64,000 nt of DNA, taken from assembly GCF_006345805.1 (NCBI RefSeq), contig NW_021831989.1, positions 496,001 to 560,000 on the forward strand, read 5' to 3'. The translations under genes and the position numbers were made by a program. Positions 4,038-61,309 of this stretch are shown piece by piece (positions within the stretch are counted from its first letter, which is position 1; every line of letters begins with the position of its first letter). Under the pieces are notes generated by a model, which was not told the origin of the DNA, ran no database searches, and worked only from the letters and a program-made list of their open reading frames with translations. Source of the DNA: Octopus sinensis (Eukaryota).

Positions 4038-5013
4038 TTATAGAATAGGTGCAATCACGTGCAATAAAGACGACTTTTTGCTGAAATAAGAGTCCACGTG
4101 TTCTACATCAACCAGTCTGTCAAATACTAAATTCAGGTCGCGGCCTTCTTTCGAACAGATTTTCAATTCGGACTAAATATAAAATTGATGTGACTTACCT
4201 GAGAACATAACAATTCCGTGCCATTACGGGAAAAGGGGGTTTCATTTGGGTCGTAGTGGATTTTTAAATGATAAAAGTCTTTTCCTTCTTTTTGACAAAT
4301 TGTAAACTCGTGGCTTAACTCATTTTGTGAATTGACGTCTTCTGACAAAACTTGAATTAGAGGTTTCGTATTTTTATCGGTCGTCGGCAAAAGGGAATTG
4401 TCAAATTTTTTTCTTCATCTATTTTAAGGCCGGGGATTTTTATTTCGCGTTTTTCGCGCATGTTTTCTGAGTTGCTGGATACAAAAAATGTTTCAAGCCA
4501 TTTTGGATCGCCTTGGTATTTTGGAAGTCTGTTGTAGCCTTTCGACAAGTCAATTTCTATTTTGTGAACTTCCTTCAAAAAGGTGATAGAAAGTGAAAAA
4601 AGTTCATTAAATAATGGCTCAGTGACGACTGTTTTGGCTGTCGTGTCGTTGATGGCCAGCAGAAATATTCTGTCTACACAAAAATAATAGTAAAATTAAA
4701 ATTTTATTTAAATATTGGTTACCTCCGCTTTTTGAATGAGGATCAGTAAACTCCTTTGCAGTCATTGGGAGAGGATCTGTTTGAGACTTGGCAGGCGGAA
4801 TTCTGGAATCAGTACAATGTTGATTATTATGTCGACTTTATTAATCGAATCCACGGCCGAAATGGTCGAAAAATAAACTAAGGGTTTGGTCATATTTTTA
4901 TATTCTTCCATTTGACTGTTAATTAATCTGCGATAGTTTTCGGGATCTTTTTTAGCTAAATCATCCAAATTTGACCAAATTTGGTCGAGTTGTTCAAGCG
5001 AAATTTTATCCAT
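4038..5013 (-). CDS. PIH1D2: PIH1 domain-containing protein 2-like (R2TP/R2SP co-chaperone); two introns and two apparent 1-nt frameshifts
   Basis: N-terminus QIWSNLDDLAKKDPENYRRLI matches PIH1D2; internal IIINI-CTDSRIPPAKSQTDPLP and KPLIQVL motifs; CS-like C-terminus YFSKKSSLLHVIAPIL*. Frameshifts near 4816 and 4390. Confidence 0.75.
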
Positions 5014-5124
5014 TAAGCACAACTTATCCTAGCAACATTTTGGCATACAATCAGCAACATTAAATCTTAAAATAATAAAAAATAAAAGTTAAATAATGGA
5101 AATGTTCAAAATATTTTAGCCAAT

Positions 5125-7708: not shown

Positions 7709-7852
7709 ATTGACAGTCTTCTAAAAAATACTCTTTAATGTCCATTTCCAAATTTTTCTCAAAATTAAAAGAATTCACATCTCCGATCATTTGTGGCAAC
7801 GTCTCACTTTTCAGCAAAAAGCTCCAAATTATTGATGAATAAGAAATAAAAT

Positions 7853-8560
7853 TATTATTATTAAAAGCACTTCCACAGAACCGAAGAATGTAAATTAACT
7901 AAGGTCCCGTTTGCGTCACACGTTTCGAGATTCTATTCACCAAGCTTCTCCATCGGTTCTTCTAGGTCGTCTGCATATTTGTGTTTTTTCCAATTTTATC
8001 AAGATCCTTGTTTAGAACAACAGTGGGAGTGTCTTTCTTTAAACGATGTATTGTTTTTATTATCAAAGTAATTGTCCATTGTAATGTTTGCGGAATTGTT
8101 TATGTTCATTCTAAGTACATGCCCAATAGCCTCCATCTTGATTAGATAATTTCAATGCTTATTGAAACCGATTGTGTCATAGAGTACAATTTCTTGTTGG
8201 AAATCTTCTTTGGCCAATCTAGGCCGAGTAAATTGCGTAATAGCTTTAGATGAAATGTGTTCATTTTTTGAGTTCTAACTCTGTGACTTCCCATGTACCC
8301 GAGTTGTACACAAGTACAGGCTTTATAGACGAGTTGTATAACCTTATTCGTAGCTCTGTTTTGATTAGCTTTTGTTGACTCCATATTTTTTGCATTTTTT
8401 ATACATTACACTGGTTAGGACTCTTTTATGCACCATGTCCTCACTATCACCAAGTAGGGATCCCAGTTTTCTTTTTTTCTTACAGTTTTCATTTATATTC
8501 TTATGTGTTCGGTCGTTTCTTTATTAACATGCAAGAACCAATTCTTAAATTAGTCGGGAT
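7853..8560 (-). mobile_element. RTE LINE 3' fragment (same family as 42530-45170)
   Basis: TFHLKLLRNLLGLDWPKKISNKKLY; (TAA)n tail; close DNA similarity to 44630-45170. Confidence 0.85.
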
Positions 8561-8679
8561 TTTTTTCAAAAACAAGTTTAAGTTAAAATACTAATACTTA
8601 ATTTACTATTTTTCAAAATATTTGTTACATTAAAAAAATAAAATAGTTCGCGTTATTTATTTGTTTTGATTAATTTGTG

Positions 8680-9186
8680 ATGGATTCGGATATTTACGAA
8701 GTTGAAGAAATACTCGATAAGACCAAAAGTACTGACGGAACAACAATCTACTTGGTTAAGTGGAAAGGTTATGGCCAGTATGCATTGTATATAACTCTCA
8801 GCGATGAAAATACATGGGAGCCCGAGGAAAACATATCTACACTATCCATAGGGATTTACGAAAATCGCAATAATTCCAAAAGAACAAGTCTTCCGCGAAG
8901 ATCAATAGACAATACTGCCAATAATAGTCAAACTCATTTAATCAGTGCTGAATGTCAGACCTCATTTTCTCAATACGAAGGGAAGACATTTGGTAGGATT
9001 ATGGGGGTCGTGAAGTACTCAGACGATGTTTATTTTTTGATGAAATGGTACATTTCAATACTCAAAATAAGGAAAAACCTGAGGAAACCTGAGCTGGTGC
9101 ACTCGGATGTTGTCAAAAAGAATTGGCCATATCAGGCTATTGATTTCATGGTGGAAAGAGCATGTCTGATTGATGATTCTAATTAA
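8680..9186 (+). CDS. HP1/chromobox protein (chromodomain + chromoshadow domain), two in-frame 24-nt introns (8778-8801, 9048-9071)
   Basis: YEVEEILD..YLVKWKGYGH|DENTWEPEENI chromodomain; IMG..YFLMKW|KNLRKPELV..VKKNWPYQAIDF chromoshadow. Removing the two GT-AG 24-mers restores canonical motif spacing. Confidence 0.9.
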   Translation: MDSDIYEVEEILDKTKSTDGTTIYLVKWKGYGQYALYITLSDENTWEPEENISTLSIGIYENRNNSKRTSLPRRSIDNTANNSQTHLISAECQTSFSQYEGKTFGRIMGVVKYSDDVYFLMKWYISILKIRKNLRKPELVHSDVVKKNWPYQAIDFMVERACLIDDSN

Positions 9187-12298: not shown

Positions 12299-13954
12299 TG
12301 TCACCGTCCAGACCGGCCGGGGCGCCAGATCGGTCAATTATCTAAATACAAAACAAATATTTTTCCTACAAAACATTTCATTGCAAAAAAATATTGATAA
12401 TAAAAAAATAAAATCTTATTAATAAAAAAGTTGAAAAGATTAGCATTAATCAATGGTTTTAGTTGAATTAACTCGAGACACCCTCGAAAAAATTAGGGAG
12501 TATTTGGAATCAGGCCACCTTGATGATTCCTTGAGTTCGGAAGAAAAGGCACGAATACGGAGATATGCCAAAAAATTTAGTTTCAAGGAGAACAACACCA
12601 ACATTTCTAAAAATGGCTCAAAGTTGCGTTTTTTTTGTATCGAAGACACTGAACTTAAGTTAAAATTCATTAAAGTAGTGTATTTGTTTATTTAAATTAG
12701 GCTCAACACAATCTTAATCACTTTGGACGTGATAAATTGTACAGTTTATTGACACTTACCATTTATGGTGCCAGACGTACTGATGTGGCATCTGTGGTAT
12801 CTCAATGTGTTTATTGTCAGGTAAATTACCAATTTTATTAATTCTAGTCGAAACGATTGCTTGCGACTAAACCAGCAATAACGCCTATTATTGCTTCTTC
12901 CCCAAGATCTTATCATACATTGTAGATCTTATCGATTTTTTTTTTAAAGTTATATGTAATTAACAAATAGTTATTAACTAACTAAATTCCCGGCATCGTA
13001 AATGGAAACACAGTTTCCACGTACTATGGCCAAGGAAATCCTTTCGAAAAGCCACTTGGACTCGCGTGGGTCTCCCCGTTTATGGGAGATCATGCGGCCA
13101 AGCTTTTTTAGAAAAGAAAGAGACTTTTCGCCGATGACGCCGGAAGTCTCGACGGCGATGGGAGTGAACAGATACCGCTCAGAGAGCTCCTTGTACTTTC
13201 CAATCTTCATCTTCTCGGTTTTGCGAGAGACTGAGCCAGGCTTGTATCGATTTAAGACGCTATTCGACCTGAAATGAAAATTATTCCTGGGTAATTTAGT
13301 AATCTAAATAACAGATTCTTGTTTTATTGGATTCCTTTTCAAAATTTGCTATGGTAAAATGTGCTTTTACCAAATCAGCTAAGGAGATCCGCGGAATCCT
13401 AGATGATATGTTTTGTATTATGAAGAGGATGAAAAAGATCAAAGTATACATATTAGCAGAGTAAAAAAACTTTAACTGCAAGTATTCATGGGGTTCGTTC
13501 TGTGTTTTTTATCGTGTCATATTTACTTAATTGTGAAATAATTGTGCCATTGTTACAAATTCGACGCGGCCGAAGGCCGCATAGGGAAAAATATTCACAT
13601 TGAATCATCCGGTTGTAGGCCGGATTGTATTTTAGAGTTTTAATGATAAAAATAGAAATTTACAACATTTTTAAAAATTAAAAATGGATTTTTCTAATAA
13701 ACTTTATTGTTGAGAATTGTTTGGCTAACCTTGGTTAAAGCGTTTTTAAATAAAATGCAAAATCAATTCGGTAATTATCTGGAAATGACTGGATGTTGGT
13801 TTTTATGAATTCAGTAACTTCAATATTTTGGCAAAAATAATATTAAAATCAACAAAAGAATGAACAGAAAAAGAAAATAACTTTCGAAAGGTAGTTTTTA
13901 TTAAAAATTTTATACATAACCGATCTGGCGCCCCGACCTATCTGGATGGTGACA
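12299..13954 (+). mobile_element. Ginger2-type DNA transposon (Gypsy-like integrase) with TIRs, 5-bp TSD and mini-introns; non-autonomous
   Basis: 36-bp TIRs TGTCACCGTCCAGACCGGCCGGGGCGCCAGATCGGT / ACCGATCTGGCGCCCCGACCTATCTGGATGGTGACA; TSD TTCAA (12294-12298, 13955-13959). Spliced ORF from 12453 gives the HHCC finger (HNLNHFG...CVYC) and VDLID...YSW|ILVLLDSFSKF. Introns at 12675-12700, 12821-12847, 13291-13314. Confidence 0.85.
12940..13241 (-). mobile_element. 5'-truncated CRE-like insertion nested in the Ginger integrase
   Basis: Nearly identical to the 3' end of the 9760-12245 copy; poly-A tail (T run near 12936-12945); TSD TATCGATTT on both sides. Confidence 0.88.
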
Positions 13955-13994
13955 TTCAATTAATAGAAAATCTAATAAAAAAATAAGTTACTAT

Positions 13995-15948: not shown

Positions 15949-17055
15949 CTAAAAATCGGCATCCATAGTGAAGACGTGAGATTCGGAATCCCCTGGCTTG
16001 CCCATGACTCCCATTCGCTGATATTCACCAACCCTTTTCTCAAAAAAGTTGGTTTTTCCATCGAGTGAAATGTTTTCCATAAAGTCGAAAGGGTTCGAAC
16101 TATTGTAATACTAAATGGAGGGTCAAAACTGATTAAACCACATCGTAGCCAAGCTCAATCAAGAGCCTGTCAGCCACAAACTCAACGTACTGACACATGA
16201 GATCGGCATTCATTCCGATGAGCTTCACTGGAAGAGAATCACAGACGAATTCTTTTTCAAGAGTGACCGCCTCAGTTATAATTTCAGCGACCCGGAATCT
16301 CGGCAATTTATTTGTCAAGTGAGAATAAAGCAGACAGGCGAAATCGGTGTGCAAGCCCTGAAAATGATGTAATAAGCTACTTCGTCCCGACTAATCAATT
16401 CGTTACTGTACGTCAACCCAGGCATGAGACCCCGCTTCTTCAACCAAAAAATGGATGCAAAGGACGCAGAAAAAAAAATCCCCTCGACTGCAGCAAAGGC
16501 AATCAGTCTCTGAGAAAAACTAAGTTCAGTACTCTCAATCCATTTTAAGGCCCAATCCGCCTTCTTTTTAACAAATTCCATGTTTTCTATTGCACAGAAC
16601 ATTTCTTCTCTACGAGGTAATTCTATCAAAACAACTTTTTCGTTAGATCAGTAATGTAAGTTTCGATCAAAGAGGAATACATTTCCGAGTGAATATTTTC
16701 CATCGCAATCTGGAATCCGTAAAAACACCGAGCCTCGGGGACCTGCACTTCCACCGCAAATCGTTCGACCTACTAATTTATGATTAAGCATGACCAGATT
16801 CTCATTAACAATTCCATCGGAGGCAGCAAAAAAGGCAAGAACATGGGAAATAAAGTATTGTTCGTTGTCTTTTAAATTCATCCAATCAGCAATATCCTTG
16901 GATAAGTCGACTTCTTCCACTGTCCAAAATGATGCAAGGGCCTTTTTGTACATTCTGAAGATGTCGGGATACTGTATGGGGAACAGTACAAAACGACGAG
17001 GATTGGCAGTTAACAGAGGTTCTTGCTCATCATTAGTAATATTTGATGGTTCCAT
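15949..17055 (-). CDS. RRM2: Ribonucleoside-diphosphate reductase small subunit (R2), four mini-introns of 25, 26, 23 and 28 nt
   Basis: [29 protein letters not shown]|[43 protein letters not shown]|[33 protein letters not shown]. Confidence 0.96.
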
Positions 17056-24209: not shown

Positions 24210-25290
24210 CTATCCGGCCACATTGTAAACAACAATTCGATCGCTGACGGAGACAATATGAGTACTCGGAGTCCGGCAAGCCACATTCCAGACTGCCTCG
24301 CTATGATCACGGTACGTCCACAGACAATGCCTCGTAGTCAAATCCCAAATATTGACAGTTTTGTCTGCAGAGCTGCAATAATACTCACAAGGTCGACCAT
24401 GAAACGAATCGAAGAGAATCTTCCGAGAAGGAAACGCCCAAAACCCACGACTTGTGTCCGGATACGATCGAGGAAACCTCCGATGCCGCACAACTTGACA
24501 TTCAGCAAAAATAATACGATTCATATATACGGATTCGGTTATCACTGGAGGCAGTCAACACACATTTCCCATTAGGAGCAAAAGCAACGGCACGAATGGC
24601 CTTGGAATGAGCCTCCCGCCACACTTCACTGCCCGTCTCGATGTCGTAAATCATGACAAATCCATTTGAATACCCAACCGCTATGTGTCGGCCGTCAGGA
24701 CTCTGCGTCTGAGTCAAAACTTTACGTAGCAGGCGCAGAAAATGAACTCAGTGCGAGAAGGGGCAATCTGCTGGACGAGATCCCCGCTCATTACGTTGTA
24801 TATATTTAATTTCCCCAGCTGTCCGCCAGACAACAACAATTTGGAGTCGGGCGAAAATTGGATAGTTCGGGACTCCCCCGAAGCGGTGTCGATGGTCTTG
24901 TGGAGTCTCCCATCCTCCACAGACCATAGTTTGACCTGACAGTCGAGACTGCTGGATGCAATGTCTAGCACGTAGAAATCAGAAAGAGACATTGACAATC
25001 GCCGGACATGTCCACGGAAATGACTCCAAGTTTGTGTCCATCAAACCGCCGCAAAACCTCCAGTTGGTCTCCCTCCCTGAACATGAGGAATGTCAATCAC
25101 CATTTTGAACAGACGACAGTGGAATCAAGTGAGCCGGTGGTGATATACTCAGTCGACGACATTGAACATTTATTCCAACAACATGACCAAATAGACGCCG
25201 TGTGGACTAGGAGTGACGATTAAAACATACATCCTTCTCGGAATGTCCCAGCAGTTGTAAACTATTGTTAAATAACAACATCAGTACCAT
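24210..25290 (-). CDS. WDR61: WD repeat protein 61 (Ski8 / SKIC8), about 7 mini-introns
   Basis: HTASIWSCCW, TGSLD, GHKLGVISVD, IASSSLDCQVKLW, SPDGRHIA.G, AHSKAIRAVAF, GHKSWVLGVSFS, SADKTVNIWD, DHSEAVWNV, IVSVSD. Confidence 0.9.
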
Positions 25291-26938: not shown

Positions 26939-29679
26939 TCAAAACAAGATTCTAGTTTTTTGTTTGGAATTGTTCATCAACTCTCTTTGCGTGCCATATT
27001 GAAAGTAATGAGGAGCAATGTCATGAAGCCAGGAGGGCTCGACTACAGTAATATCTTTGATATAAAGCAGGCCGTTCGATTGGACGACTTGGTTATAAAT
27101 TATACTAACAGTGTAGAGTAGTAGAATACTAGCTGGAGGGCTCTTCTCGGTAAAGAACAGATGTGGGGTGGACATATAACTTGTTTCCCCCACTGATCGA
27201 CTCGTAGTAACCCCCACTGGTGTGCAGTTTGGCGGCCTGACTGAACAACCCCTCGGTGAGACTCTTCCTCACCACATCATTGTCTGCCTAACAATGACAC
27301 AATACCCGAAATGGAGTCACGAATGGACGATCTCCCAATTCCTATCTTCTTCAACAAAGCAAATAAATGGTCTCTAATCTCCAACGCCCTGTGCAAGCCA
27401 CGGTAGTTCAGAAAGTTGGATTGACACCACCCTCTGCTTTTTGAATTCTACCATGATGGCAACAGCACAACCTTAAGAAAACCCTCAAAGACATTCAAAT
27501 AGGTGATGTGGTCACCCTCCAACACGGCGAACCTTCGCTGGGCCTTGATTGCGGCCTTCTTCTGTTTGTGTGGGTTGTAATACAAATTCTGTATTTGCAT
27601 GAGAGCAGCGATGGTGACTATTTCGTCGACACAACCATACTCGACTAGAATTAGACAAGTGCAATACCCGATTTGATCAGCATCGTGGAATACACTGGCG
27701 GCAAAGGGAACTCAGCAATCCTGAACCCGAAAGGGATGGTCAGATCAGTGTGTTCGTCGATGGCTACAATGAGTGAGTGAAAGTACCTCCCAATGCATAA
27801 ATCAATTGGAGAGCACGGGAGACATTGACGGCGGGGGGAGCCTTGCCTTAATCCACAATTTATACAGAGAGAAAGTCAAAGCGGAGAATATTCCTAATTC
27901 CCATGGCCTTCAATTGCATGAGAGCGCCGGAGAGTTCCACACGCTGCATTTCCGGGACAGAATAATCAGGCAAATCCTCCTTGTACGACTTTTCTACCAG
28001 TCAGGACAGTCAAAATAAACCCGTATACAAACGAAACACTTTGCCCGGCCTGACTCTCCCAGCACGGCCAGCCCTCTGTCGGCAGAAGACTTGGAAATGG
28101 GCGTAGTGATGAGTGCCTCTACGAGTTAGCCCACCAACTCACCTATTGCCGTTTCGGGGTTATACGCACGAATTTTGGTATATCCACAGTCGACGACTAG
28201 AAGATGAGCCACAACAGTCAACCGTAAACAATCCAGTCGATGGTCAAAGATGCCTCCGCAATATTCGTGGCCAACACCACTTTTCGGGTGTTTCGAGGCA
28301 TAGTATCGAACACTCTCATCTATGTGTCCACCAAATCTCCCAACCTGATCTTTCGGAGGGAGTGTACTATAGAGAGGGTAGACACGCATTGCGACTCCAC
28401 GGGAGTTGGTCTGCCGTTCGTCGTCACTGCAATATTCGAACAAACACCAACACTATACGCCTCATTGCCGATTCAATCTCCTCCTAAATCACCCTCAATG
28501 TGGAAATAACAACCATTCCCGTGAGAAAGGCCAAGATATCTCCTCGGCCTTCATGTTCGTGTATTTTGAAAATGGTGTCGACGGTGGCATCCACGTAGTT
28601 GGGCAGAGGACTAGTCGAGTACATCACCACCACTACTTGAGGGAATAGTGCACTTTGACGGGGAAAACTCGTCCTTTTACTGACAGAATAGCACACGAGT
28701 CTTTTCTGAAAATATATTCCACAAACAAACGTCATGTCTCTCGATTCGTTCGTCTCAAAGAAACTTTTGAATTTCTAAAATATTGGAATGTAAGACCTCG
28801 GCCTCGAGAGTGGCAGAAGCAATGATAACTTTAAACCCGTCGTCCCTCTTCTTGAGTATCTGACACAATAAAAGCACGGAATCACCTTTTTGATGAGTCC
28901 CGCAAGTATATCCGTATTCAGACTGCGCTCGTGGACTTCATCAAGCATGACCACACTTAAATACACCTAAATGTGACACCTGTAGCGAGAGAGCAGAGGG
29001 TCGGACATTATTTCTCGTATGACAAGCCCATCGGTGGCAAACTAAAGTCACGGGTGGCAAAGACTTTAATTTTGGTGCGTGTCGAATCGGTAGAGTCGTC
29101 AAATCGAATAGAATATCCTACATCTTCTCCGATGTTGGATTTGGTCTCATCGGCCACCCTTTGAGCCAACTGTGCATAATACAGAGCACTAACTGTGATT
29201 GCGGCTATTCGTCGGGGTTGAGACACCAGAATTTGTTTTCCTGTCTGAGCATAACCAGCCTCGAGGAGATACTGCATAGCCTTATAACAAATAGTGCACT
29301 TGAGGGAGTTGAGTGCTCTTCCCACACCCCGTCTCGCCCTCGATAATCAAGACTGAGTAGTGTTCCATCATGTAGAGGAAGTTAGTCCGCCACTACAACT
29401 CAGGAGATATCAACCACCTGGAAAATAGGCAGACTCTCTCGCTGTTCACGAAAAGTCATATTTGGGACACTTCTGAAATAAATACGGGAGGAGGCGTTTT
29501 CTTCCCCGTTCTCGTCCAATAGATTTCTCTCTTCCATGTATGTTTTGTCGAGATCTGATTGGTTAACCAAGTAGAACTAGCCCGGCTTTATGAATCCCCC
29601 GGGAGCACTTGCAAATTTGCATTCCTCATTTCTCTTTCGTTTATGACTCTAATTCATCAAATTTATAATATACAGGCAT
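26939..29679 (-). CDS. DHX35: DEAH-box RNA helicase DHX35, many mini-introns (one GC-AG), one apparent 1-nt frameshift
   Basis: FIKP..EER N-terminus, [56 protein letters not shown], (Q)[39 protein letters not shown]. Confidence 0.9.
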
Positions 29680-33870: not shown

Positions 33871-36800
33871 TTATTTATTGATGAATTTTCTGTTAATTAA
33901 GTGGATGAGCAGATTCACGTTGCACTGAGCCTGGTCTAGCGAGATGTGTCCAATCCCCTCTCTTTGTAATTCCAGAAGATTCTAATTGAGGGAAATTCAA
34001 CTTTCAATAAACCTGGAATGTGAACTTGGAGGTTTTCATCACCACTCCAAGAAAAGAGGCAAATGTTGAAAAAGTCCCAGGGTCATCTGTCTCTTCAATA
34101 GTAATTTGAAGTTTGTTAAAACTAAATCGTTTATTAGACAATACTCTTTGTCCTTAATTCCAGTAACAGATAAAAGAATTCCATTTTCGTGCATCTTTTT
34201 CCCGGAATATCGGATTTTTATCGGTTTGCGAGCTTTATTTTTTGACCTGAAATTAGTAATAATAATTACTTTGTGTTCATTGTCTGACTTAGTAACGAAA
34301 TTATATATTTATTATATGACTCTATCTGATCTTGGTGAAAATCATGTTTTTTAAGCAACTCCTGGTGTACTAGTTTAAGGCTTGCGATATCTTTCTTTCT
34401 CTCCAAATCTAATTTTCGCTTTTCCACAATTTCCTTTGAATGTTTTAAGGGTTTTCGATACTTTAGCAATTTGTATTAGGTATGATTGATAGCCGACTTC
34501 TCTTTCGATGTATCCATCCTCGATGAGAGTTTGGGTATTTTGTATGACGAATTGTTTTATTTCTTGAATCGTTAGGCTGAAATATTGTTATTGTAATATG
34601 TCTAAACCGATTCTTGTTTTCCTCAGGTAAAATTTTTTCAAAAACAGCCAGTTTTTTTTCAAATTGGTCGTAGAACAGTTGGTTCAATTTTTCCTTTAAA
34701 TAAAACGTAGACACTAAACTTCTGCTTCAGTGTTAGGTGTGGAGAAAAGTTCATCAAAGTCTTTACTCCTTTGACATTGGAGCAGCTGGCAAATCATTAA
34801 AGTACACCTGAATTTATTCACTCGAGAAATACTTTAAAAATAAGGCCTTTTTCGTCGACCCGCTTTCCATTACTGAAGAATTTCCAATACAGTTATTCAT
34901 CGTTATTATGAATTCTACCTGTTTTAGTTTTTCATTTGTATCAGTTTCATCATCTAAAATCAGCATTAGAAAAAAAAATTAACGGTCAATGCCAATTAGT
35001 TTTTCCGGAGTCAGCTCTCCTATTTCGTCTAATTTAGCCAAAAAAAATTCATTTTTAAATAAATGTTTGGATCTCAGTATTAACTATTAAGTAACGCAAT
35101 ATAAAAATAACATCGTGTATTTGTAACAAATGGTATGCAGATATATAAATCTGAGGTGGTGCGAGCAATTTCTCGTCCATGAATTCATCAAATTTAAAAT
35201 GCGTGTTCAAGTTTTCTACGTTGCAAACTTTTTCAATAAAGTCTCTAAAAATGAATAATATACACAAGTTCTTTAACATGGTGAGCAATAAATATAACTA
35301 ATACCTAAACGGATGTCGCCACTTGTCAAAAAAATCCTTGATTTGCGGAAATGAACAAATTGAACAAACATCTTCAGGTTTTCCATCTGTAGCCAATATT
35401 TGAATCAACCGAGCCACTTCCGCCAAATTGAAACGTTGGTCGTTGCTGATTATGGAATCAATTGAACCAATAAAAGCTCCAAATGATTCGGGCACAACAA
35501 TTGCCACGTTCAAGTAACGAAAGTAAACTAAATTGGAAATCGTCGCAAAAATAGATGCTTCGTCAAAACTTGTATGCTCCAGCAAACATTTTTTTAATAT
35601 AGAGCACATGTACCGAACTCCATAACTATTTTTATAGTGATTTCATTACGGGATTTTGTCGTATCCTTTTACAATTCCTTGCAATACGTCATCTGTCAGT
35701 CTTATTAGTTTGGAGAATGACGATTCCAGCATGCTACGTACATTCTCGTGTACACATGCTTCTTCTGCTGTCACATTGTAAGGAAGATTACTATTCTCAC
35801 AAAATATAGAACTATACCTGGAGACTCCTTCGTCGGCTTCTTTTTTGAAGATCCACTGTTTGTATATCACAATCGGGTCAGTTTTAATCTTCAAAATTTG
35901 ATTATCAAGGACTGGCGATAAGAGTGGAGCAATGTGTTCGCTGATGTCATATTCTTTGCTTTTGAGGTTTCTGAATGGGAAATTATCGGCAATATTCCTC
36001 ACCTACAAATATACACAATTAATTCCATGATGAAATTATCTGCAGATAAAAGTTCAAAAATTGAATCAGTTTTCAAATTTCTAAGAAAACATTGACAAAT
36101 TTTCAGAATACCTCACTTCATCTTCTAAAATGTTAGTAAATGCTTTAAGAATAAGGTATTCCTCCCGTTTATGAGTGGCGTGATTAAAGCAGTTCAAAAT
36201 ATTATTCCTTAATTTGTTGGAGTTTGGGGTATTTTTAAAGTTTTGAATCAATAACGATAGACACTCGGGATTAGTCTTAAATACTTTAGTCAAATAAAAA
36301 CTTGAAGTGTGTAAAATATGTCAGAATATTTATCGAGAAGATCTCTTGTTTCTTTCTTAATAACATGATTATCTGAGACGCCTTGATCTTTTATTTTTTT
36401 TAGTTTATGTAGTTTTTCATTTTTTTGATTTTCACTCTATAATAGGCTAATAAAAACTAACCAGCACTGAGATTTGATTGCGAATTAAGAGGCCCGCTTC
36501 TTGTCCGATTTCTTCAACTTTCTTTTGCAATTTCTGATTCAATTTGATTAATCTAAACGTTTCCATTCTCAAAATTTGAAGTTCTTGAAAAATTAATAAT
36601 AAACATTTTCCAACCCATTTCTTCCTTAAATTCACTTTCCTTGGTATTTAGTAAATGCATAAAATCTTGAAGAGCGGCAATAGATTGGAAATCCCCCGAC
36701 ACTACAAATTTTACCAATTAAAAAGTGAGAATTGATAAAATAATATTTATACATAAGGAGCGGTAGTTTTTTTGTGTACAACTTCCACGAACTATGGCTT

Positions 36801-39041
36801 GAATTTTAACTATTTGAGGCATCTTGAACATTATAAGGACAAATTAAAACATGATCATAATAATACTTCATGAATTTTTTATGTGGATAGTAAACCAAAA
36901 AACTCCGAATAGCACTCTGTAACTATATCGTATTTAGTATAAATCAGGATTTACCGTGACAGTTTGTTCAATTGGAATACTTAAAGACTGTTTATAACTT
37001 TCATAAGTTGATTTTACATTCCTCATGCGAATTAATTTCTATCAATTGTTTATTGCAATTAAACTTGAATAATCAATGCATGTTTTAAAACTGATGCCAA
37101 ATATACTTTTTCTTTCTGTAAAATAACTCGCTGAAAACATTGACGAATAACACTTTGTAGCAAGGTAATATATTGTAAATTATCGTGATAAAACAATTCA
37201 CGAGCTTGCTCATTATTCTTGTTATTTATAATTGTCTTAATGTAAATTTTTTATTGCAAACTTGAATGTCTAAACTTGATAGGAATGAAGTATTTTCAGT
37301 ATAATCTTCCGTTTGAAAATGAAACCATTTTTTATTGTTTAAATTATAGTATATTTTAAAGTTTCGTTCTTTTACAGATTCAACAGTGATCCAATCTCCA
37401 GAAGAATCACGTGGCTCTAAAAGATGATTTTCGAAATTTTACTAAGTAATTTTGCTTTTACAAGGTCTGCATAGTAGTCGGTTTCAGAATTTACGTTTTT
37501 AAAATTGCTTTTTAAAATATCTGAAGAGTCAAATTTATCTTGCATTTCCAAAGTCTCGTTTATTTCAATAACAGCATTAGACACTAAATATGTGATAAAT
37601 TGATACATTCAATCAATTCCGTGGCAGTTGAATTAGCTTTTGCGATAGCAGATTGGACATGAGTCATATTCATGATAACTCCATCATTTGCCTATAAACA
37701 CAATTAAGAATAATATTTACGTTGAAAACTGATTCTAAAGAGTTCATATAGAGTGAGATGTGATCAATGTTAACATTTTTAAATTTGGGTATTGGAGATT
37801 TTAAGATTTTTAACAGTCTTTCATTGTCACTATCTCTGACTGAATTGTTAATTTCTTCCATAATAGTAGAAACTAAATAAAGTAATATTTTAATTTTTGA
37901 ACGATTCAAGAAATCTATTTTTTCTTGTATTTCTTCCTTATTCAAGTATTGTGTATAAATGTCTTGATCTATATCGGTATTTTTATTCTGACAAAAATAT
38001 TAACCAGAAAAATTTTACATTTGATCTTTTCAATTCCAAATATAATGCCAAGTTATCTTTGTAGGTTAGAATGTTTGCCGCCACCACGGAATTCAAACAA
38101 CTTATAGGATTTTGTAAAAGTTCAAGCAAATGGTCTGGTTCAGAGTTGTTCAGTAAGGATTCGTTGATAGCGATAATGGCAGCGTGCACTAAAAGGAATA
38201 ACGTCAAACATATAACTGGCAGCATCATCTTCGCTAATCTATATTAAATTGAGTTCAATCAAAACCTCGTCGGCCAGGATTCCTGCAATTTTTGAAAAGT
38301 TGGGTAGTTCTATTTTATAAAATTCCAATTGTTTTTGTATTGCATTCAAATGTTCGTCTAAGAAAATTTGATTGATACAGCCAACGTGAAAATTCTGCAA
38401 TTCCATATATGCTAACGATCGGCTTGGATCTCCCCTTGCGGTGAAGGAAAATGCTGATGAGTAGTTATTCGTGTCCAACCTTAATGCGTGTATGCAGAAA
38501 ATCAGCTTAGGTATATTTTTCTTGTCATAAATGTCAGTTGTTTCTGGGTGAAATACCTAAAAAATGAACGAATTAAATCAGTTAATTAATTCATGAAATA
38601 ATTGAATATTTTATGAATAATAAATATGTAAAATGAATTAATTGTCAAGGATTGCACAAACCTCGGGAAGTTCAATCTTTTTAAGGAACTTGAAAAAATA
38701 ATTGATATTGTCTGTATGTCGAAAATGTAATCCGAGAGATTCCTAATGTTAATTTAATCCACTTTAACGCGGTAATGTTTCCTAGAGATGTCGAATATCT
38801 TATTGCGTGGAATCACTTTGGGTTCAAAATGGCATCCAAGCATTGATAAAATTACCCCATCTCGAAGAGCTTCTTCGAAGTCGATCACATCTGGCATATC
38901 TTCGTCGATGATATCATCAATCCATCTACGAAAGTTATACACAACCAATATATACATTCGAGCTTCTTCCAGATAACAAAGATATTTGTAAGCATTTTGT
39001 AGTTTTCGCTTTTCATCAATATCTTCAAATTCGCAATCCAT
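33871..39041 (-). CDS. IQGAP: IQGAP (CH domain, IQ region, RasGAP, RasGAP_C), many mini-introns
   Basis: AYKYLCYLEEA, FEEALRDGVIL, GLHFRHTDNI, PETTDIYDKKNIPKLIFCIHAL, KIQAIVRG, REEYLILK, NLVYFRYLNVAIVVPE, QRFNLAEVAR, NVNLLIHLINRKF. Confidence 0.92.
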
Positions 39042-43108: not shown

Positions 43109-44625
43109 CAGTACCGCTCAAATGTTTCGGACCACCCTATTTTTCTCAATTTCCAAGTCAATCCTAAATTATTTTTATACGGTTCTTTAGAGAAACTTAT
43201 TAGATAAGCTTAAATACATTTATTCTATTCTAAAATTTTCTTTAAATATTTTTGTTTGGCGCCAATTGAATATAATTGATTTTTGACTCGATCATATGTT
43301 CCGGACCAGTTGCAATCATATGTTTCGAACCAGTTAAATCTCTTTAAATTTAAATAATTTTTGATTCAATTAAAAACAAAAGACTAATAAATAACAAATG
43401 CCGCGTTTTTCACTGGTTGATCGGGTCGCTATCATCACTTTTTTTAAAGATGGAGCTTCACAAAGAGAAATTGCCGAAAAATTAAAAATATCCAAAACTG
43501 CTGTTCAAAGAACAATTTCCAGATATTCATCCGTTGGACTATATTCCGACAGACCCAAATCTGGTCGACCGAGATTGTTATCCCCAAGATCTGAACGCAA
43601 ATTAGTGAGAATTTCGAAAGCAGACCCCACAAAAACGGCAAATCAAATTAAATTTGATATGAAATTAAATTCTATTGTAAGCACAAATACAATTAAAAGA
43701 TGCCTACAAAGAAATAATTTGAATGGGCGAAAGCAATGCCCAAAACCAAGTCTTTCCATATGCCATAAAAAGGCTAGAAAAAATTGGTGCATTGAGAAAT
43801 TAACTTGGAGCCAAAATGATTGGGGTAAAATTATTTTTAGTGATGAATGCAAAATAAATTTGCATTCAAACACAAAAAATTATGTTAGAAGGCCACCAAA
43901 CTCTAGATTTGACTCAAAATATTGTTTAAAAACACGAAAATTTTCTCCTAGCATTATGGTCTGGGGAGCTATTGCTGCAAATGGATGGAGAAACATTGTC
44001 TTATGCATTAAAAATGTTGATTCCGCAGAGTATCAGAGAATTATAAATGTTGGACTCGAAAATTTTTATGATGAGACCATGTATCTCCAGCAAGACGGCG
44101 CTCCTTCCCATCGGTCCATGTCGACAATGAATTTTTTTCAAAGGAAACAAATAAAAATCTTAGAAACTTGGCCGAGCCAGTCACCCGAACTGAATATTAT
44201 TGAAAATATGTGGTCGGTACTAAAACAAAAACTTTATGATCTGGAACCAAAAGATCTTCCAGAGCTCTGGAATTTGACCAAAAAAATTTGGTACGAGATT
44301 GATAATTCGTACATTGAAAAATTATACAATTCACTTCCAGAGCGAATAAATGCTGTTATAACGAACAACGGAGGAAATATTAATTATTAACTTTTTATAA
44401 GTTTAATAAATTTTCGGTTTTTTTTAAACTGGTCCGGAACATATGATCGAGTATAAAATCGATAATTTTAAAATTGCGCCAAACATGAATATCTGTCCAA
44501 GTTTTTAAAATAGAATAAATGTGTTTAAGCTTATCTAATAAGTTTCTCTAAAGAACCGTATAAAATAATTTAGGATTGACTTGGAAATGAGAAAATAGGG
44601 TGGTCCGAAACATTGAGCGGTACTG
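43109..44625 (+). mobile_element. Full-length Tc1-family transposon with IR/DR-type TIRs of about 200 bp
   Basis: TA TSD; TIR CAGTACCGCTCAA(A)TGTTTCGGACCACCC; internal repeats of TATGTT(C/T)CG(G/A)ACCAGTT. Confidence 0.95.
43398..44390 (+). CDS. Intact Tc1-like transposase, DD35E spacing, 330 aa
   Basis: Paired-like HTH, SGRPR, IIFSDE, MVWG, QQDGAPSH...WPSQSPELNIIE (35 residues between D and E). Confidence 0.93.
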   Translation: MPRFSLVDRVAIITFFKDGASQREIAEKLKISKTAVQRTISRYSSVGLYSDRPKSGRPRLLSPRSERKLVRISKADPTKTANQIKFDMKLNSIVSTNTIKRCLQRNNLNGRKQCPKPSLSICHKKARKNWCIEKLTWSQNDWGKIIFSDECKINLHSNTKNYVRRPPNSRFDSKYCLKTRKFSPSIMVWGAIAANGWRNIVLCIKNVDSAEYQRIINVGLENFYDETMYLQQDGAPSHRSMSTMNFFQRKQIKILETWPSQSPELNIIENMWSVLKQKLYDLEPKDLPELWNLTKKIWYEIDNSYIEKLYNSLPERINAVITNNGGNINY

Positions 44626-45302: not shown

Positions 45303-46679
45303 TCACCAACCCGAAGCGACACGTCTCATACGCCTTGTTTTGCTTAGCTGTATAAAAACCTGGTCGAACGATCCAAATCGCGTAATTTTTTGTCAATCTC
45401 AGCATCACTCAAAATTTCGATGGTGGGTCCCCACTTCTCAGCTTCAGGTAGTGACCGATAAAGCTGATTGTCGACCGGCGGCAATGTCGAATCCCCACTA
45501 TGAAGTAAATACAATTTGATACTATAAGGCGAATTTACGATGATGCTCCAGTTGACCGCGAATGGAATATGAAATGACTGATTGGAACTCCCCTCCAATA
45601 CCTTTCGGAACAATAAGCAAGCAAACCCAAGTCCGCACAGAGAATGCGAGCAAAGGCCTCTGGATCATTATTAGGGTCCGATAAGTCCCACTCAAATTGA
45701 TCTACCAGAGAAATGTTGTTGAGTTGAATATTGAGCTGTGGATGATAGACCACCAAACCTTGATTGGAACTCTGTGTTCCATCGAACTGAAATGGGAGGT
45801 CTGGTGATCAGCCAGTTGCTGTTCAATGCACTTTACAATGGCCGGCACGAAAACCGAATTGATCAATCCGATTTCGTCACAAAGTATTTCTGCAAACATC
45901 TTTGGAGTTACAAGTTTCTCTAAAGTATTCCAATCACCAAATACCGTTTTTATTCCACAGAAAAACATCTCGAAGTTTTTGGCCTTCCAGTTCCAAGTCA
46001 ATTCTAATGGCCACCAAGTCCTCACTTTGGGCGGAATTTGCGAAAAAGGCGTCTGAATCCATATCGTCAATGCTAGGACAGTCACAGTGGGAGGCAACCA
46101 TAAAGCAAAGCTGCGACCTTTATTTCTGCCAACTGCCCTGTTGGGGTTGACAATCGTACACGTCGGCACTGGTGCCAAGTGCTGATTCGTCGACAAAGCC
46201 ACTCCTGCCGCGGACAAATGACCCGAATTTATGCCAGCCACGGTGGAACGCCGAGGTTTAAATGTGCACAGACTTAAACTGATATGTGAAATGAACTTTG
46301 AAGCCAATTCCTCGACGTGTTGTTCGTTTTGAGCAGAAAGGAGTTTGAGGGCCTCCTCGGTGCCACTCAGAACAGCCTCAATCTCACTGGCCCTGACCAG
46401 CGTTATGTTGGAGCAAGCAGTTGTGTTTATAATTTCTAGTTTGTCATATCGCGGGCATACGTCGAGAATAAACGTTTTGTTTTTCTTCTGGTGTCAAAAA
46501 CCGACGCCACAAAAATGGGTATTTTTTGTACAAGGCTCCTCTCTGTAGTTTTAGGAAATGGCCGACCTATTTTTGAAATAAGTAGATTTTTAAACTTCGG
46601 ATCCGATGCAGTACCATTCTCCATTTTCTTCCAGCTGGAATTGGACTGGTCGTGAGGGATGTCGCCTCTCTTGTGCCAT
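45303..46679 (-). CDS. SMARCB1: SWI/SNF subunit SNF5/INI1
   Basis: PVQFQLEENGEWYCIGSE|VG, RGALYKKYP.LWRR, IRIDLELEGQKLRDVFLWNKN, FAEILCD, LVDQFEWDLS, PEAFA..LCADLG.GGEF, KKLRDLDRSTR|RMRR. Confidence 0.95.
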
Positions 46680-47925: not shown

Positions 47926-49399
47926 TCATCCGGGAGAATTAAAATAGAACCGTTTTTTCATGGTAGTCATAAAAGTGGGAGTCTGAGAGACACCATCAGT
48001 GGTGACCTGGTCCCCAATAAGGTGATTGACTCGCGTGAATAAAGTCAGCAAATCATCTCGCCAGGAATATTTCATTAGCACATACACTATGCCGTTGACG
48101 AACCAACTGCCCCTTTCCACATCCCGCACAGATACATAACCTATATTTGTGTTAACAGTGATAGACCAGGAATGGACGCAATGGCTATAAACATGTCTGC
48201 CTTCGCACCCGTTTTGATTCTATCTGATGCAGACACCATGGAAGCCTTCCGCCCCGAAGCAGAGGTTAGTCTCGAATTGGAGAATAGGTCACCTTCCTTC
48301 AGTTCTATAACTCCCTCCAGTATTCTACAACCTCCTTGGCATCCCTGAATCACAAATATTTTGGGCTTGTTGGCGAGTGCTCCGCAATGTTCTTTATCAA
48401 AAATGTCGGTGATGAAGTCGATGGGGAGATCAGACCCATCAACCCCGCATATAGTCCCATTCTTCCCGTGTGACAGTGCAACCAGGAGCAGAGAATCAAT
48501 GCCTCCCAGCAAATCAACATCCTCGCTATATTTGGTGAGGAGTGATTCCATTTCCTATTCCATAATGAGAAAACATACTTGTGTGGTTAGGTTAGTGTGT
48601 TGATTAACGAGGAAGCCTAAGGAAGAGAAGAGTTCCTTGCAAAGTCGACTGTCCCGCTCCGACCCATCCCTGCGAGGGAGGGAATCAAAATCAATGTTTT
48701 CTATAATAAGACACAGCCCACAAGGATGCGAGTTGATGACATACACATCTTTCGACTAATCATGTCTCATTAAAAACACCCAAATAATGTCGTTAGATGA
48801 ATCAGCAGTGGTGATCTCGACAGTAGGACGACTTTCATTCAAAAAATCTTAAAAATGAAGGACAGTCTACTTTCAAATCCCAAACGGATGTTTTCATCCT
48901 CACTAATCAACCCATTTCCGCGAACAATCGACGAACGAGTGGAACCGGGGGTCATTTCTGAGTATGATTTAATCCGCCTTTCCACGTATACATTTTGAAT
49001 GAATTCAGTGGTAAAGGTATCCTCAGGAGGGAGGCTACTATCCTGCCACCCTTAAAACATAGGACATCTCAAAGTATGGCCGATATATGATTTATGACTA
49101 ACCAAGTGTCGTGGCAATGTTTTTTTGGTTGGTAGCAACGAGTGCTTGAATGAACACTTGGAAGGATTCTGGTCTTTTCTGAATCAAGTCAAGAAATGTG
49201 ATGGCAATTTCCCTTCTATTTTTACAGCTCTGCATTAGAATCGTGATTGATGTATTAATGCAACCAGGATTTCTTCAGTCATATTTCTTGAGAAAATATT
49301 TTGGGCGTCGAAATATGAAATGAAGAATCTATCCACATTTAGATCATTGCATAGAAGAACATAATTCTCTCTAATCAAATCCTTGTGGGCCTTATCCAT
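47926..49399 (-). CDS. CARD-containing initiator caspase (caspase-2/9-like)
   Basis: N-terminal CARD-like MDKAHKDLIRENYVLLCNDL..; p20 GLCLIIEN, RDGSERD, LSHG, KPKIFVIQGCQG; p10 ADMFIA, GYVSVRD..GSWF, QTP...KRFYF. Confidence 0.88.
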
Positions 49400-49997: not shown

Positions 49998-51769
<1,772 letters not shown>

Positions 51770-53913: not shown

Positions 53914-55435
<1,522 letters not shown>

Positions 55436-56620: not shown

Positions 56621-56639
56621 ATTTTTTATTCTATTACAA

Positions 56640-57830: not shown

Positions 57831-60096
57831 GGAAATTATTATTTAGATTAAAGCATTACTGTTTGTTAAACTGTGATTGTCTATTGATCATTATAAGGAT
57901 ATACATAATCTGTTTGTGAATCTAAAACAAACAATTTCTTATTTGTATGCCCAGAAATGATTTTTAGAAATATTCTTTAATGTACATTGCCAGTGCAGAC
58001 AACAAATACATTCTCTCGACATGGATTGCATACAAGTCAACTGCAACTTTTCATATTGAATTAAAAACATTTAAATCTCATAATGAAAGAACAAATTCAG
58101 GAATATACGGAATGATAATGGAATTATTCAGAATTATCTGGATTGTCAGTTTTTTGCCCTTGGACACAATAATAAAGCTGTTATGATCATACTTTCTGGA
58201 TATTTTTTGTAGATTTTTAAAAATCACTAATAATTGATTTAAAGAATATTTTTAAGCAAACAATAAGTGGGTCAATAAAATCTGCCCCCAATTAGTCTGG
58301 ACGTGTTGTATCAAATGGTGGACTCGTTGGGGATATCGGCTGCGGCTATTTTCTTTTTGGGAATATTTGGATATGGATTGACCATTTCTTTCAAAAAACG
58401 AAAAGACTGACCACTCACCCACAAGTTCGATTGAGCTAAATGATATTTGGTCATTGATGTAGAGTTTCAATAAATAGTAAGGAGCAAATAGAAAAATAAT
58501 CTTAACCTATTGAATGTATTACTAAATAAGTGGAAATTCTAGTCGATTAAAGACCGTTATACTAGATAGTAATGTTGGAAAGCTTAATGATGGAATATAC
58601 TTTAAATAAGTTATGATAAATTTTTTGGCTAAAGAACCTTGAAATGTTTTTTTCGGAGCTGTGTATAGACAACTCGTCCATTTAAAATTTTTTTGCTTAT
58701 AAAGGACAGCTATATTGTAGTACATATAAACCCGGAGTTTAATAAGAACTTTTGTATTCAGTCAAAAGAAAACATTTCGTTTGATTTAGATTTAGGTCCA
58801 TTAGCTAGCATCTAAGCTTTGACTATTGCTTTTACTAAAATACTCCATCGACTCAAATAGGAGCAACAATCAGCATTGTAGCACTTAAAAAACTGTTCGA
58901 TAGTAGTGTGGGATACTTGATTAGAAAATGATTTGAAAACTAGAATTACAAACGCCTATGACCTTAAAAAAACACAGCAGTCTTTCAAATCTCAGTCTAG
59001 ACAGCCTGACACCATCAAATTTTCTTAAATAACAACCATTTATAGATTTCATTAAACTCTTTGAAATGAAATTGGTCTCCAGCAGTCGCAATCAAAAAGG
59101 TCACACATGAGGATAAAAACAATTATAAATCTGTAAACAAAAATATAATTCATATTAATTCAGTGATGGTAAATTAATTATGTGGAAACGTCACAAATCC
59201 AAATCCATAATGTCAGAATGTACGTAGTCCACTCTCAAACACAATATTTGCCTGATCTCTACTTGAGAAAGACGCCAAGAGATTTGTTCAGCGTTCCAGA
59301 TGGAGACTACCTCTTGCAACTAGGCAATTAAAGTCTTCCACCAACCGAATTTGTAGTAAGAACTGACAGTATTTGCAAGATACGTACAAAATTGTCACGA
59401 TAAGCCCAGGTCGACATTGCAATAATGTGATTAGACAAAATCCTAACCTCCTTTTCCAATAACACGGATTGAGTCTAAGAATATAACAAAAAGTTGTACA
59501 ATGTCAAAACAGGTCCTAAAATTGCTTTTTCGACCAAATTAGTCAGTTCCCTTACTGAAACGTCGAGGAAACGCTCATAGTTTGCTTCTGTAAGTTCTTT
59601 CTAAACAATTACTAAAAAACACAACCTTGAAAAGAGAAAAAAACTCGTTGACTTGTTCACAAATATTTGCACAATTCGCATCAATTTCATAATCATCAAT
59701 CACTTTCTGACATGTGCGGTCTGACATTAAAAAGTTGCCATATTTTGCATCACCTGTTCATTTTGGTCAAGAGGGAATAGAAAAAGTCTTTCCTCTGCCA
59801 GACCTGACCAAACAACAGCAGGCAATGATACACCTTGCACTGCCATTCCTTGAGGCAGAAATAAAATCTGGACTTGATTACTTCAATTAACATTTATCTC
59901 ATAATTCTGATTCTGCTAATAACAACAAACATCGTTGATGATAAAATCATTTTGGGACAGATGAAAAAATCGAGAGGCAGTTACCGCGTAGAATAGAGAC
60001 CGAGACGCGCTGGAAGAGCTATCTGCAAGAGCCAAATATTTAACTTTAGATAATTAATTCCTCGTTAAATTCTTCTATTTAAAATATTTTCCCGTA

Positions 60097-61309
60097 ATGT
60101 TTCCGATGCTAATTCTTTTGCTATCCTTAATTTCCCAGACTGAAAATGAGTGCCCATCTCCGTTTTTTAATCCATCTCAAAAGTCTAGAAATTAATTTGA
60201 ATAATAAAGTTTACAAAAATTGCCAACTTTTGAACATACCTCTCCTTGATAATGGTCCGACAGTTCAAATTTTGTTGATACTGTTTCTATTAATTGTTAG
60301 AGATGTTTCTTACAACAACATTCGTCTTCTCAATGATAATTCTTTTACTGAAATGCCATAGCTTATTAATTTGTAGCAATTTTTTGGTAGACTCTAGAAA
60401 TTTGGAACACAACTCGGTAAAATCAATCACACGTAGAACATTCGACAAAATCCAAAATTTAACATCATTGTAGTCCTTTTTTTAATCGAAGGAATTTGAA
60501 TAATAATTTATTAACCAGTTTTGAAATGGGGACATTTGACAGCCTAACAAGCCTCCAAATACTGTACAAAATTATTCATTTTAAAACTAAAAGTTCATTC
60601 AGCGCCAACCAAATCACTTCACTTGGAAAATTGTTTGATCAAAATGACAAACTTGCTAATATGTTTGCTAAATTTGTAAAATTAAGCAATTTTCTCGACA
60701 ACCCTATAAAAGTGGTAGACATGAGGATCTTTACTGTTGGAAATCAAAATTTTGCGTTTTTTTGTTTATAATTTTAGATCTATTTCATTTTCAAATCCAA
60801 ACGTGACATGTGCTTTTAATCTTGCGCTATATTCTATGTACATTTCATAAATCTAATAGCAAGTTTTATAAAACCTCAAGAAAACAACAACAAACCAATT
60901 ATATATACATTTACAGAACAAGATGCTGCAATAAAAAAGTTATAGACATTTTGTGACAGATAGCTCACGTTATATAAATAGATTTTGTCCAATTCAAAAT
61001 GTTACAGAAGAATGTAGGTATGCAAGAAATGGTATTTCTCAAATAAATTTATATTAAGAATGCCAACGACCCGATTTAGCACCACACCAGACTTCAACAG
61101 CTTCAATAATGTCAGAAGTAACGGCAACGACCTTAACAGTTAAACCAATCGATTTAGCACCACAGAATACTTCAACAGCTTCAACAATGTCAAAAGGAAC
61201 AGTAGCGACCTCACCAGTTGCAACCAATCGTCCATTTGAAAACAAAAAAGAACAAAATTCACTTATTTTGACGTATTCGCTTGGCATTTTAATACCACTT
61301 GTCATTTAA
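60097..61309 (+). pseudogene. Secreted/GPI-type LRR protein with Thr/Ser-rich stalk; in-frame TAG at 60359-60361
   Basis: Signal peptide MFPMLILLLSLIS; LRR exons of 72, 72, 72, 69 and 69 nt (LDVSYNNI, LNLEHNSV, LNLNNNLL, LSFSANQI, INFLDNPI); duplicated DLAP..TSTAS.MS stalk; hydrophobic C-terminal tail. Confidence 0.72.

What the first reader, a model, noticed from the sequence alone, without database searches (positions are those of the whole stretch)
4038..61309. Window-wide 22-30-nt introns with almost no splice-site consensus: apparently length-defined splicing
Seen: dozens of introns inferred from conserved protein motifs cluster at 22-30 nt. Donor hexamers are nearly random after GT (GTCATG, GTTGTT, GTCGAC, GTCTCT, GTTCCC, GTGTGT, GTTTAA, GTGGAT). 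Many acceptors are AAG rather than YAG, and no consistent polypyrimidine tract or branch motif is visible. Established: ordinary U2 splicing relies on GTRAGT-U1/U6 pairing and much longer introns; introns this small are known from ciliates, nucleomorphs, microsporidia and dicyemids. Inference: this animal uses a reduced or modified spliceosome that recognises introns mainly by GT-AG spacing.
Basis: partly seen in the sequence, partly recalled or inferred. Interest (0 to 1): 0.75.

Follow-up and report, generated by a model that had tools for sequence, protein, structure and literature searches.

The report
Dicyemid mini-introns, complete spliceosome toolkit
This DNA likely comes from a dicyemid, a tiny kidney parasite of cephalopods already known for very short introns, assembled along with its host; its 22-31-base introns are likely removed by a largely ordinary splicing machine that uses several weak cues, including an adenosine 16-18 bases from the intron start, rather than spacing alone.

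Summary
The tiny inserts are real: protein homology alone, with no splice signals allowed, puts 23-30-nt insertions at 30 of 31 places. The window is not the nominal animal but a co-assembled dicyemid (RRM2 sister to Dicyema japonicum, 100/99; dicyemid 18S primers match). Such introns and their degenerate signals are published (2007-2026). Spacing alone cannot define introns: 87 of 841 GT-AG pairs of 22-31 nt are introns. The spliceosome is not visibly reduced: U2, U4, U5, U6, a U1-like family with canonical 5' end, U1-70K, U1C, LUC7, SF1, Slu7, RED and PRP2/16/22/43 lie on parasite contigs. Best model: two minimal distances (donor to branch about 16, branch to AG about 5) give the 22-nt floor. 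Splicing itself was not shown here (no RNA). The scan noted the +17 A before on other DNA of this assembly.

The parts
15949..17055 (-). RRM2 gene, 4 introns (16770-16794, 16610-16635, 16358-16380, 16111-16138; 25, 26, 23, 28 nt)
   Evidence: Pfam PF00268; profile-to-genome alignment without the Dicyema row; best hit and sister of D. japonicum RRM2
26939..29537 (-). DEAH-box helicase gene, 21 introns of 22-30 nt, one 1-nt frameshift near 28080 (likely an assembly error); subfamily not tested
   Evidence: Pfam HA2_C, OB_NTP_bind; homology alignment
53914..55435 (-). NDR/STK38 kinase gene, 7 homology-defined introns of 23-30 nt (one GC donor) plus one modelled 24-nt intron
24210..25290 (-). WD40 gene, 7 modelled introns of 23-26 nt (the first may be a model artefact)
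   Evidence: Pfam; gene model
34004..39041 (-). IQGAP-like gene (CH and RasGAP domains), at least 17 modelled introns of 23-31 nt; model incomplete
   Evidence: Pfam; AT-rich gene model
45303..46679 (-). SNF5/SMARCB1 gene, 9 modelled introns of 23-29 nt
47926..49399 (-). CARD-caspase gene, 4 modelled short introns of 23-26 nt
   Evidence: Peptidase_C14; CARD E 4e-4, below the curated cut-off, on one exon
49998..51769 (-). Src-family-like tyrosine kinase gene (SH3 to kinase), 7 modelled introns of 22-29 nt
   Evidence: identical exon in database protein P0241
8680..9186 (+). HP1-like gene with two stop-less in-frame 24-nt candidate introns (8778-8801, 9048-9071)
   Evidence: sequence; both Pfam matches span 8 more residues than the profile
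4038..5013 (-). gene of unassigned family, one modelled 26-nt intron (4173-4198); model needs two frameshifts
   Evidence: no convincing Pfam match
59191..59727 (-). part of a longer AT-rich gene (to about 61300), 4 modelled introns of 23-26 nt
   Evidence: rest not modelled
12453..12925 (+). 5' part of a repeated, probably transposon gene with two modelled introns (26, 27 nt)
   Evidence: repeat mask; model; family not established
43395..44390 (+). Tc1/mariner transposase used as marker of the parasite genome
   Evidence: Pfam DDE_3; 40 of 40 scored copies on unplaced contigs, none on C1-C30

Best explanation
The window is likely dicyemid DNA whose 22-31-nt inserts are likely ordinary U2-type introns, predicted to be recognised by adding up weak cues (exon-side MAG before GT, a U-rich body, an adenosine at +16 to +18, YAG) inside a size window likely set by two minimal distances. 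Shown: the inserts, their lengths, the cue frequencies, the presence of the snRNA and protein genes. Inferred: U1 (canonical 5' end) and U5 loop I grip mainly the last three exon bases plus GU; U2 (canonical GUAGUA) bulges an A at the earliest place the machine can reach, about 16-18 nt from the donor; the first usable AG at least about 5 nt further on ends the intron; 16+6 gives the 22-nt floor. Intron versus exon base composition, and probably removal of mis-spliced RNA by NMD, would suppress the many exon decoys.
For: Dicyemid origin; GC and repeat content like D. japonicum. Lengths: 78 of 79 kept homology introns are 22-34 nt; a self-trained model started from a flat length prior peaks at 23-26. 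Branch-like A: within 1 nt of the fitted centre in 67 of 76 homology introns (control position 32 of 76) and 524 of 609 modelled introns (control 335 of 609); slope against length 0.36, bootstrap 0.28-0.45, n=462; simulated boundary errors do not produce such a slope; annotation-free peak at 17 in the window and the rest of its contig. Donors match the U1 arm mostly on the exon side: 1.53 against 0.65 matches. Combined cues AUC 0.95; the true intron ranks first among overlapping candidates in 79 of 87. Inventory: U2 (80), U4, U5, U6, U1-like family (125), U1-70K, U1C, LUC7 on the window's own contig (105), SF1, Slu7 (100), RED, PRP2/16/22/43 (81, 83-86). PMC13644364 reports for D. japonicum that the weakly conserved A's move away from the AG as introns lengthen.
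Against: No RNA evidence here: neither splicing nor the branch nucleotide was observed. The context of the A is weak (T at -2 in 55% against 47%), so it may be a compositional mark rather than a paired branch site. In the homology set a purely donor-anchored A (slope 0) is not rejected (log-likelihood difference 1.1, n=76). The annotation-free peak was not significant on the first 80-kb tiles of C7755 and C8702. The 'first AG at 22 nt or more' rule holds in 73 of 79 but is hardly above chance (internal AG 6 of 247 against 30 of 788 positions). The signal-free gene model recovers only 21 of 32 homology introns exactly and invents introns in host DNA. The discriminating power of composition does not show that the spliceosome reads it. 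Only about 66 nt of the U1-like RNA were seen, with a changed stem-loop-1 loop; U2AF, SF3b, PRP8 and SR proteins were not tested.
Confidence: 0.68

Rival explanations
1. Donor-anchored ruler in a structurally modified spliceosome: once a donor is chosen, the machine places the branch at a fixed distance (about 17 nt) almost regardless of sequence, because U1/U6 and U2 are held together in a compact geometry unlike the human B complex.
For: Narrow A peak (sigma about 0.8 nt), weak motif around it, slope far nearer 0 than 1; hard 22-nt floor; human spliceosomes need about 50 nt between donor and branch (PMC6692369, passages), so some remodelling is unavoidable; slightly shortened U5 and U6 and a changed U1 loop.
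Against: Slope 0 is rejected in the modelled set (log-likelihood difference 17); longer introns exist (57 nt in U1C; D. japonicum 90th percentile 32 nt, maximum 2855); all core RNA elements seen are canonical. This differs from the best explanation in degree, not kind.
Confidence: 0.22
2. One reading: a reduced spliceosome recognises introns mainly by GT-AG spacing.
For: No intron-side donor consensus, no polypyrimidine tract, very narrow length range.
Against: About nine decoy pairs per intron in the same size window, length AUC 0.67; no peak in raw GT..YAG spacing; every spliceosome part that could be searched was found.
Confidence: 0.05
3. The inserts are not spliced, or are assembly or alignment artefacts.
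Against: 55 of 78 kept introns of up to 34 nt shift the frame and 16 of the other 23 hold a stop, inside essential genes; 27 of 31 signal-free insertions coincide with GT/GC..AG; cDNA-verified 26-nt introns in D. acuticephalum (PMC2222250, passages).
Confidence: 0.03

Closest known systems
Dicyemid ultra-short spliceosomal introns (D. acuticephalum PMC2222250; Dicyema sp. PMC6543705; D. japonicum PMC6736024, PMC13644364; Ogino 2010 not seen, cited through PMC6543705)
   Same: Size (published mean 26.2, median 27, median 24 with 10th-90th percentile 22-32; here mode 25, floor 22), donor reduced to GT, weak A's that recede from the AG as length grows, GC about 36%, repeat-rich genome.
   Different: Probably another species (RRM2 77.7% identical to D. 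japonicum). Here GTT is as common as GTA and YAG is clear (85%), whereas PMC13644364 describes 'GTa' and 'AG' only. The position of the A relative to the donor, the decoy count and the snRNA/protein inventory were not found for dicyemids in the texts read (that paper examined U2 and U2AF in myxozoans only); its length-wise logos are figures I could not see and may already show the +17 position.
Myxobolid myxozoan introns (PMC13644364, whole main text)
   Same: Median 22-27 nt, reduced signals, canonical U2 branch-binding region.
   Different: Independent lineage; the window is not myxozoan (RRM2 tree, 18S primers, a CARD-caspase, which myxozoans are reported to lack, PMC10192318 passages).
Stentor coeruleus 15-16-nt introns (PMC9505925, passages)
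   Same: All snRNAs canonical, positional branch A without strong context, U-rich intron.
   Different: In Stentor the A is at 10 or 11, i.e. fixed to the 3' end (slope 1); here slope about 0.36 and the donor-branch span is 16-18 nt.
Human short-intron splicing needing Smu1/RED (PMC6692369, passages)
   Same: Donor-to-branch distance is the limiting length; RED is present on a parasite contig.
   Different: Human limit about 50 nt; here about one third of that.

Membership tests
Dicyemida (source organism) | Conserved protein groups with Dicyema | tested here: met
   Best of 7991 hits is D. japonicum RRM2; sister at 100/99 in a 31-row tree, which held no myxozoan or orthonectid row
Dicyemida (source organism) | 18S rRNA carries the dicyemid primer sites F3/R2 | tested here: met
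   Short (1667 nt) SSU on C1618, a contig with the window's Tc1: F3 2 mismatches, R2 0; the two other SSU loci 9 and 7
Dicyemida (source organism) | Separate genome co-assembled with a host | tested here: met
   Tc1 copies only on unplaced contigs; second, compact copies of splicing genes beside long-intron copies on C1-C30
U2-type spliceosomal introns | GT/GC-AG ends at homology-defined junctions | tested here: met
   27 of 31 signal-free insertions, chance 6.6%
U2-type spliceosomal introns | Branch adenosine upstream of the AG | tested here: inconclusive
   Positional A enriched but weak context and no lariat data
U2-type spliceosomal introns | Intron-side GTRAGT consensus and polypyrimidine tract | tested here: not met
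   GTRAGT 2 of 79; at most 0.06 bit per position from -12 to -4. Typical of, but not required for, U2-type introns; also lacking in published dicyemid introns
U2-type spliceosomal introns | Removal from mRNA | not testable with these tools
   No run was listed
Canonical major spliceosome | U2, U4, U5, U6 with canonical functional motifs | tested here: met
   Rfam alignments on parasite contigs
Canonical major spliceosome | U1 snRNA with canonical 5' arm | tested here: inconclusive
   15 related copies on unplaced contigs (C8851, C12601, C12605 carry the window's Tc1) with the canonical 5' arm, a 9-bp stem with compensatory changes read by eye, and the U1A-loop motif; only about 66 nt seen, not scored against Rfam
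Canonical major spliceosome | U1-70K, U1C, LUC7, SF1, Slu7, RED, PRP2/16/22/43 | tested here: met
Canonical major spliceosome | U2AF, SF3b, PRP8, SR proteins | not tested
   The U2AF search gave no answer twice; the others were not searched
Myxobolidae / Myxozoa | No CARD-caspase; proteins group with myxozoans | tested here: not met
   Caspase with a weak CARD match against PMC10192318; RRM2 groups with Dicyema

The most novel reading that the evidence does not exclude
Dicyemids splice across a donor-to-branch span of only 16-18 nt with fully canonical snRNA arms, so their spliceosome must assemble in a geometry or order unlike the human one (for example U1 held almost wholly on the exon, branch site set by distance from the donor), making them an animal model of the minimal spliceosomal intron.
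Probability: 0.35. Interest if true: 0.62.

Novelty: new member of a known kind. Interest (0 to 1): 0.3.

Why it matters
The intron class is published, and PMC13644364 ends by asking how such introns are recognised. This window adds numbers that make the question testable: where the branch A probably lies, how little spacing alone explains, and that the machine keeps its usual parts although the donor-branch span is a third of the human minimum. It also shows that a dicyemid genome lies inside a host assembly and that its genes have entered public databases under the host's name, with wrong models (P0241).

Tried and rejected
RNA: no RNA holder listed, so no reads were laid. Rfam scan of the window: no match. 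Myxozoan origin was my first idea and was dropped. Raw GT..YAG spacing gives no peak. A strong YTNAY consensus, suggested by eye in GC-rich genes, did not hold in larger sets (about 10% at +17). U1 candidates rejected: C9998 (same sequence as host copies), C12481, C11323, C5655, C13316 (microsatellite-rich DNA sharing nothing with parasite tiles), C8713/C8699 (a dispersed repeat, no Rfam U1 match); patterns gave no confirmed parasite U1, and one search also missed the host's. The DEAH representative search returned mostly fragments; 32 of 150 (430 aa or longer) were used. 18 of 97 homology introns were dropped for weak flanks, among them calls of 13, 15, 42, 57 and 168 nt. The Src search returned one protein only, so Src introns are modelled, not homology-defined. 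Avoidance of stop-less 3n introns: too few cases. Literature searches for a dicyemid spliceosome or branch-distance study found none; subscription papers such as Ogino 2010 are not in the library, and supplementary logos (figures) of PMC13644364 could not be seen.
Full report
Origin. The window is G000:C8460:496001-560000 in a 2.72-Gb assembly with about 30 very large scaffolds, but it is gene-dense with tiny introns. Its Tc1 transposon occurs in 40 of 40 scored copies on unplaced contigs only. One such contig holds a 1667-nt SSU rRNA, while the chromosome copies span about 2600 nt. The dicyemid primers printed in PMC6778094 (supplement rows seen) match this short SSU with 2 and 0 mismatches and two other SSU loci with 9 and 7. 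The best of 7991 hits for an RRM2 exon is Dicyema japonicum; the spliced RRM2 is 77.7% identical to it and its sister at 100/99 in a 31-row tree that held no myxozoan or orthonectid row. So the window is likely from a dicyemid other than D. japonicum, co-assembled with a cephalopod host. A database protein labelled Octopus sinensis is identical to a window kinase exon and is a chimera with a Tc1 fragment.

Are the introns real? I wrote a profile-to-genome aligner with a flat length cost (minimum 10 nt, no maximum). It gives 32 introns of 22-30 nt in RRM2, NDR and a DEAH helicase. With no splice signals allowed, 30 of 31 insertions are still 23-30 nt, and 27 of 31 have a same-length GT/GC..AG within 5 nt, against 6.6% by chance. 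Seven more DEAH genes from parasite contigs raise the set to 97 introns, of which 79 pass a flank filter; 78 of 79 are 22-34 nt. A self-trained gene model with no splice-site or branch terms, started from a flat length prior on 964 kb, converges on a peak at 23-26 nt; it recovers 21 of 32 homology introns exactly, 29 of 32 once splice terms are added (partly trained on the same DNA), and it invents introns in host DNA, so it is noisy. The window tally is 84 introns of 22-31 nt. No RNA run was listed; splicing is inferred.

Signals. In the 79 kept introns: donors GTT 27, GTA 25, GTG 18, GTC 7, GCA 2; 58 distinct hexamers; GTRAG 3; +3..+6 carry at most 0.03 bit each. The exon side carries about 1 bit (-1 G 63%, -2 A 61%), acceptors are TAG 57, CAG 10, AAG 10, GAG 2, and introns are 43% T against 27% in exons. 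Matches to the U1 arm are 1.53 against 0.65 on the exon side and 1.21 against 0.88 on the intron side, compared with 907 exon GTs. An A peak lies at +16 in 22-nt introns, +17 in 23-25-nt and +18 in 26-28-nt introns. The fitted slope is 0.36 (bootstrap 0.28-0.45, n=462), rejecting both 0 and 1; in the homology set it is 0.46, rejecting 1 but not 0; simulated boundary errors leave slopes of 0 and 1 unchanged. An A within 1 nt of the centre is present in 67 of 76 homology introns against 32 of 76 at a control position, but its context is weak. Without annotation, GT is enriched exactly 17 positions from YTNAY followed by YAG: 50 against 24.6 in the window, 201 against 155 in 400 kb of the same contig, not significant on two 80-kb tiles of other contigs.

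Is spacing enough? No. In ten genes 841 GT..AG pairs of 22-31 nt exist, 87 are introns, 530 lie wholly in exons. With weights from 585 independent modelled introns, AUC is 0.67 for length, 0.79 exon -3..-1, 0.71 Y at -3, 0.69 branch A, 0.87 composition, 0.95 all; the true intron ranks first among overlapping candidates in 79 of 87. Length acts as a floor: 30 AGs ending at 12-21 are all skipped. The rule 'first AG at 22 or more' holds in 73 of 79 but is barely above chance.

Spliceosome. On parasite contigs: U2 with canonical branch-binding region, U4, U5 with canonical loop I, U6 with canonical ACAGAGA box, U1-70K, U1C, LUC7 on the window's contig (105), SF1, Slu7 (100), RED, and best matches to DHX16, PRP16, DHX8 and DHX15 (83-86). 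U1 snRNA was missed by Rfam ranking and five patterns, then appeared as 15 related copies with a canonical 5' arm and, read by eye, a stem with compensatory changes and a changed loop; only about 66 nt were seen. U2AF could not be searched; SF3b, PRP8 and SR proteins were not searched.

Mechanism. Most likely (0.68) a largely canonical U2 spliceosome sums weak cues within a window set by two minimal spans, about 16 nt donor to branch and about 5 nt branch to AG. The spans are inferred from sequence statistics; pairing assignments follow established knowledge; a role for NMD is recalled, not tested. A stricter donor-anchored ruler (0.22) is the main rival. Humans need about 50 nt between donor and branch (PMC6692369, passages), so how this machine copes is the open question.

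What is known. Dicyemid mini-introns: PMC2222250 (passages; 26.2 nt, genomic and cDNA), PMC6543705 and PMC6736024 (passages), PMC13644364 (whole main text, supplement row for D. japonicum and methods passages; logos are figures and were not seen), which reports reduced 5' and 3' motifs and A's that recede from the AG with length. PMC10192318, PMC9505925 and PMC12953835 were seen as passages. Searches found no dicyemid snRNA inventory or donor-to-branch measurement; Ogino 2010 is not held. My reading was fixed before I opened the scan's notes; at least four earlier unreviewed notes on other DNA of this assembly report the same +17 A and 22-nt floor, which is repetition, not independent evidence.

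Verdict. Observation partly confirmed, interpretation partly supported, phenomenon known; the decoy count and the inventory are modest additions. Interest 0.30.

Noticed in passing
P0241; window 50648-50944 and 53200-53460: A public protein named as an Octopus sinensis Fyn-like kinase is identical to this parasite's kinase exon and fused to a Tc1 N-terminus: a dicyemid gene mislabelled and mis-modelled because of the tiny introns.
   Followed up: partly
G000 C8697:462613-462678, C12462:450438-450503 and 13 more: Multi-copy U1-like RNA with canonical 5' arm but a changed U1-70K-binding loop; two or three sequence variants.
   Followed up: partly
L131 (G000:C8459, SF1 gene): A 44-nt intron contains an internal AG|GT that divides it into 24 + 20 nt; possibly two-step (recursive) removal, seen by eye only.
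   Followed up: no
L139 (G000:C12467, U1C gene): First intron is 57 nt, about twice the usual size.
   Followed up: no
window 47926-49399: CARD-caspase with active-site motif QGCQG: an initiator-type caspase kept in this very reduced animal.
   Followed up: partly
window 12348-13421: Repeated element whose 5' gene part carries host-sized introns (26, 27 nt); earlier scan notes describe Ginger-type transposons with such introns.
   Followed up: no
L005 5460-5600 (G000:C1618): A histone H3-like 5' fragment lies about 200 nt after the parasite's 18S end.
   Followed up: no
window 8680-9186: Both HP1 introns are in-frame, stop-less 24-mers; retention would add 8 residues inside the chromo and chromo-shadow domains.
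   Followed up: no
L115 (G000:C9002, PRP43): The 5' half of the helicase gene (about 1.2 kb) has no intron while paralogues have several there.
   Followed up: no
L142-L150: At least ten dispersed U5 copies with differing 5' stems and flanks; U2 copies also differ in their upstream DNA.
   Followed up: no
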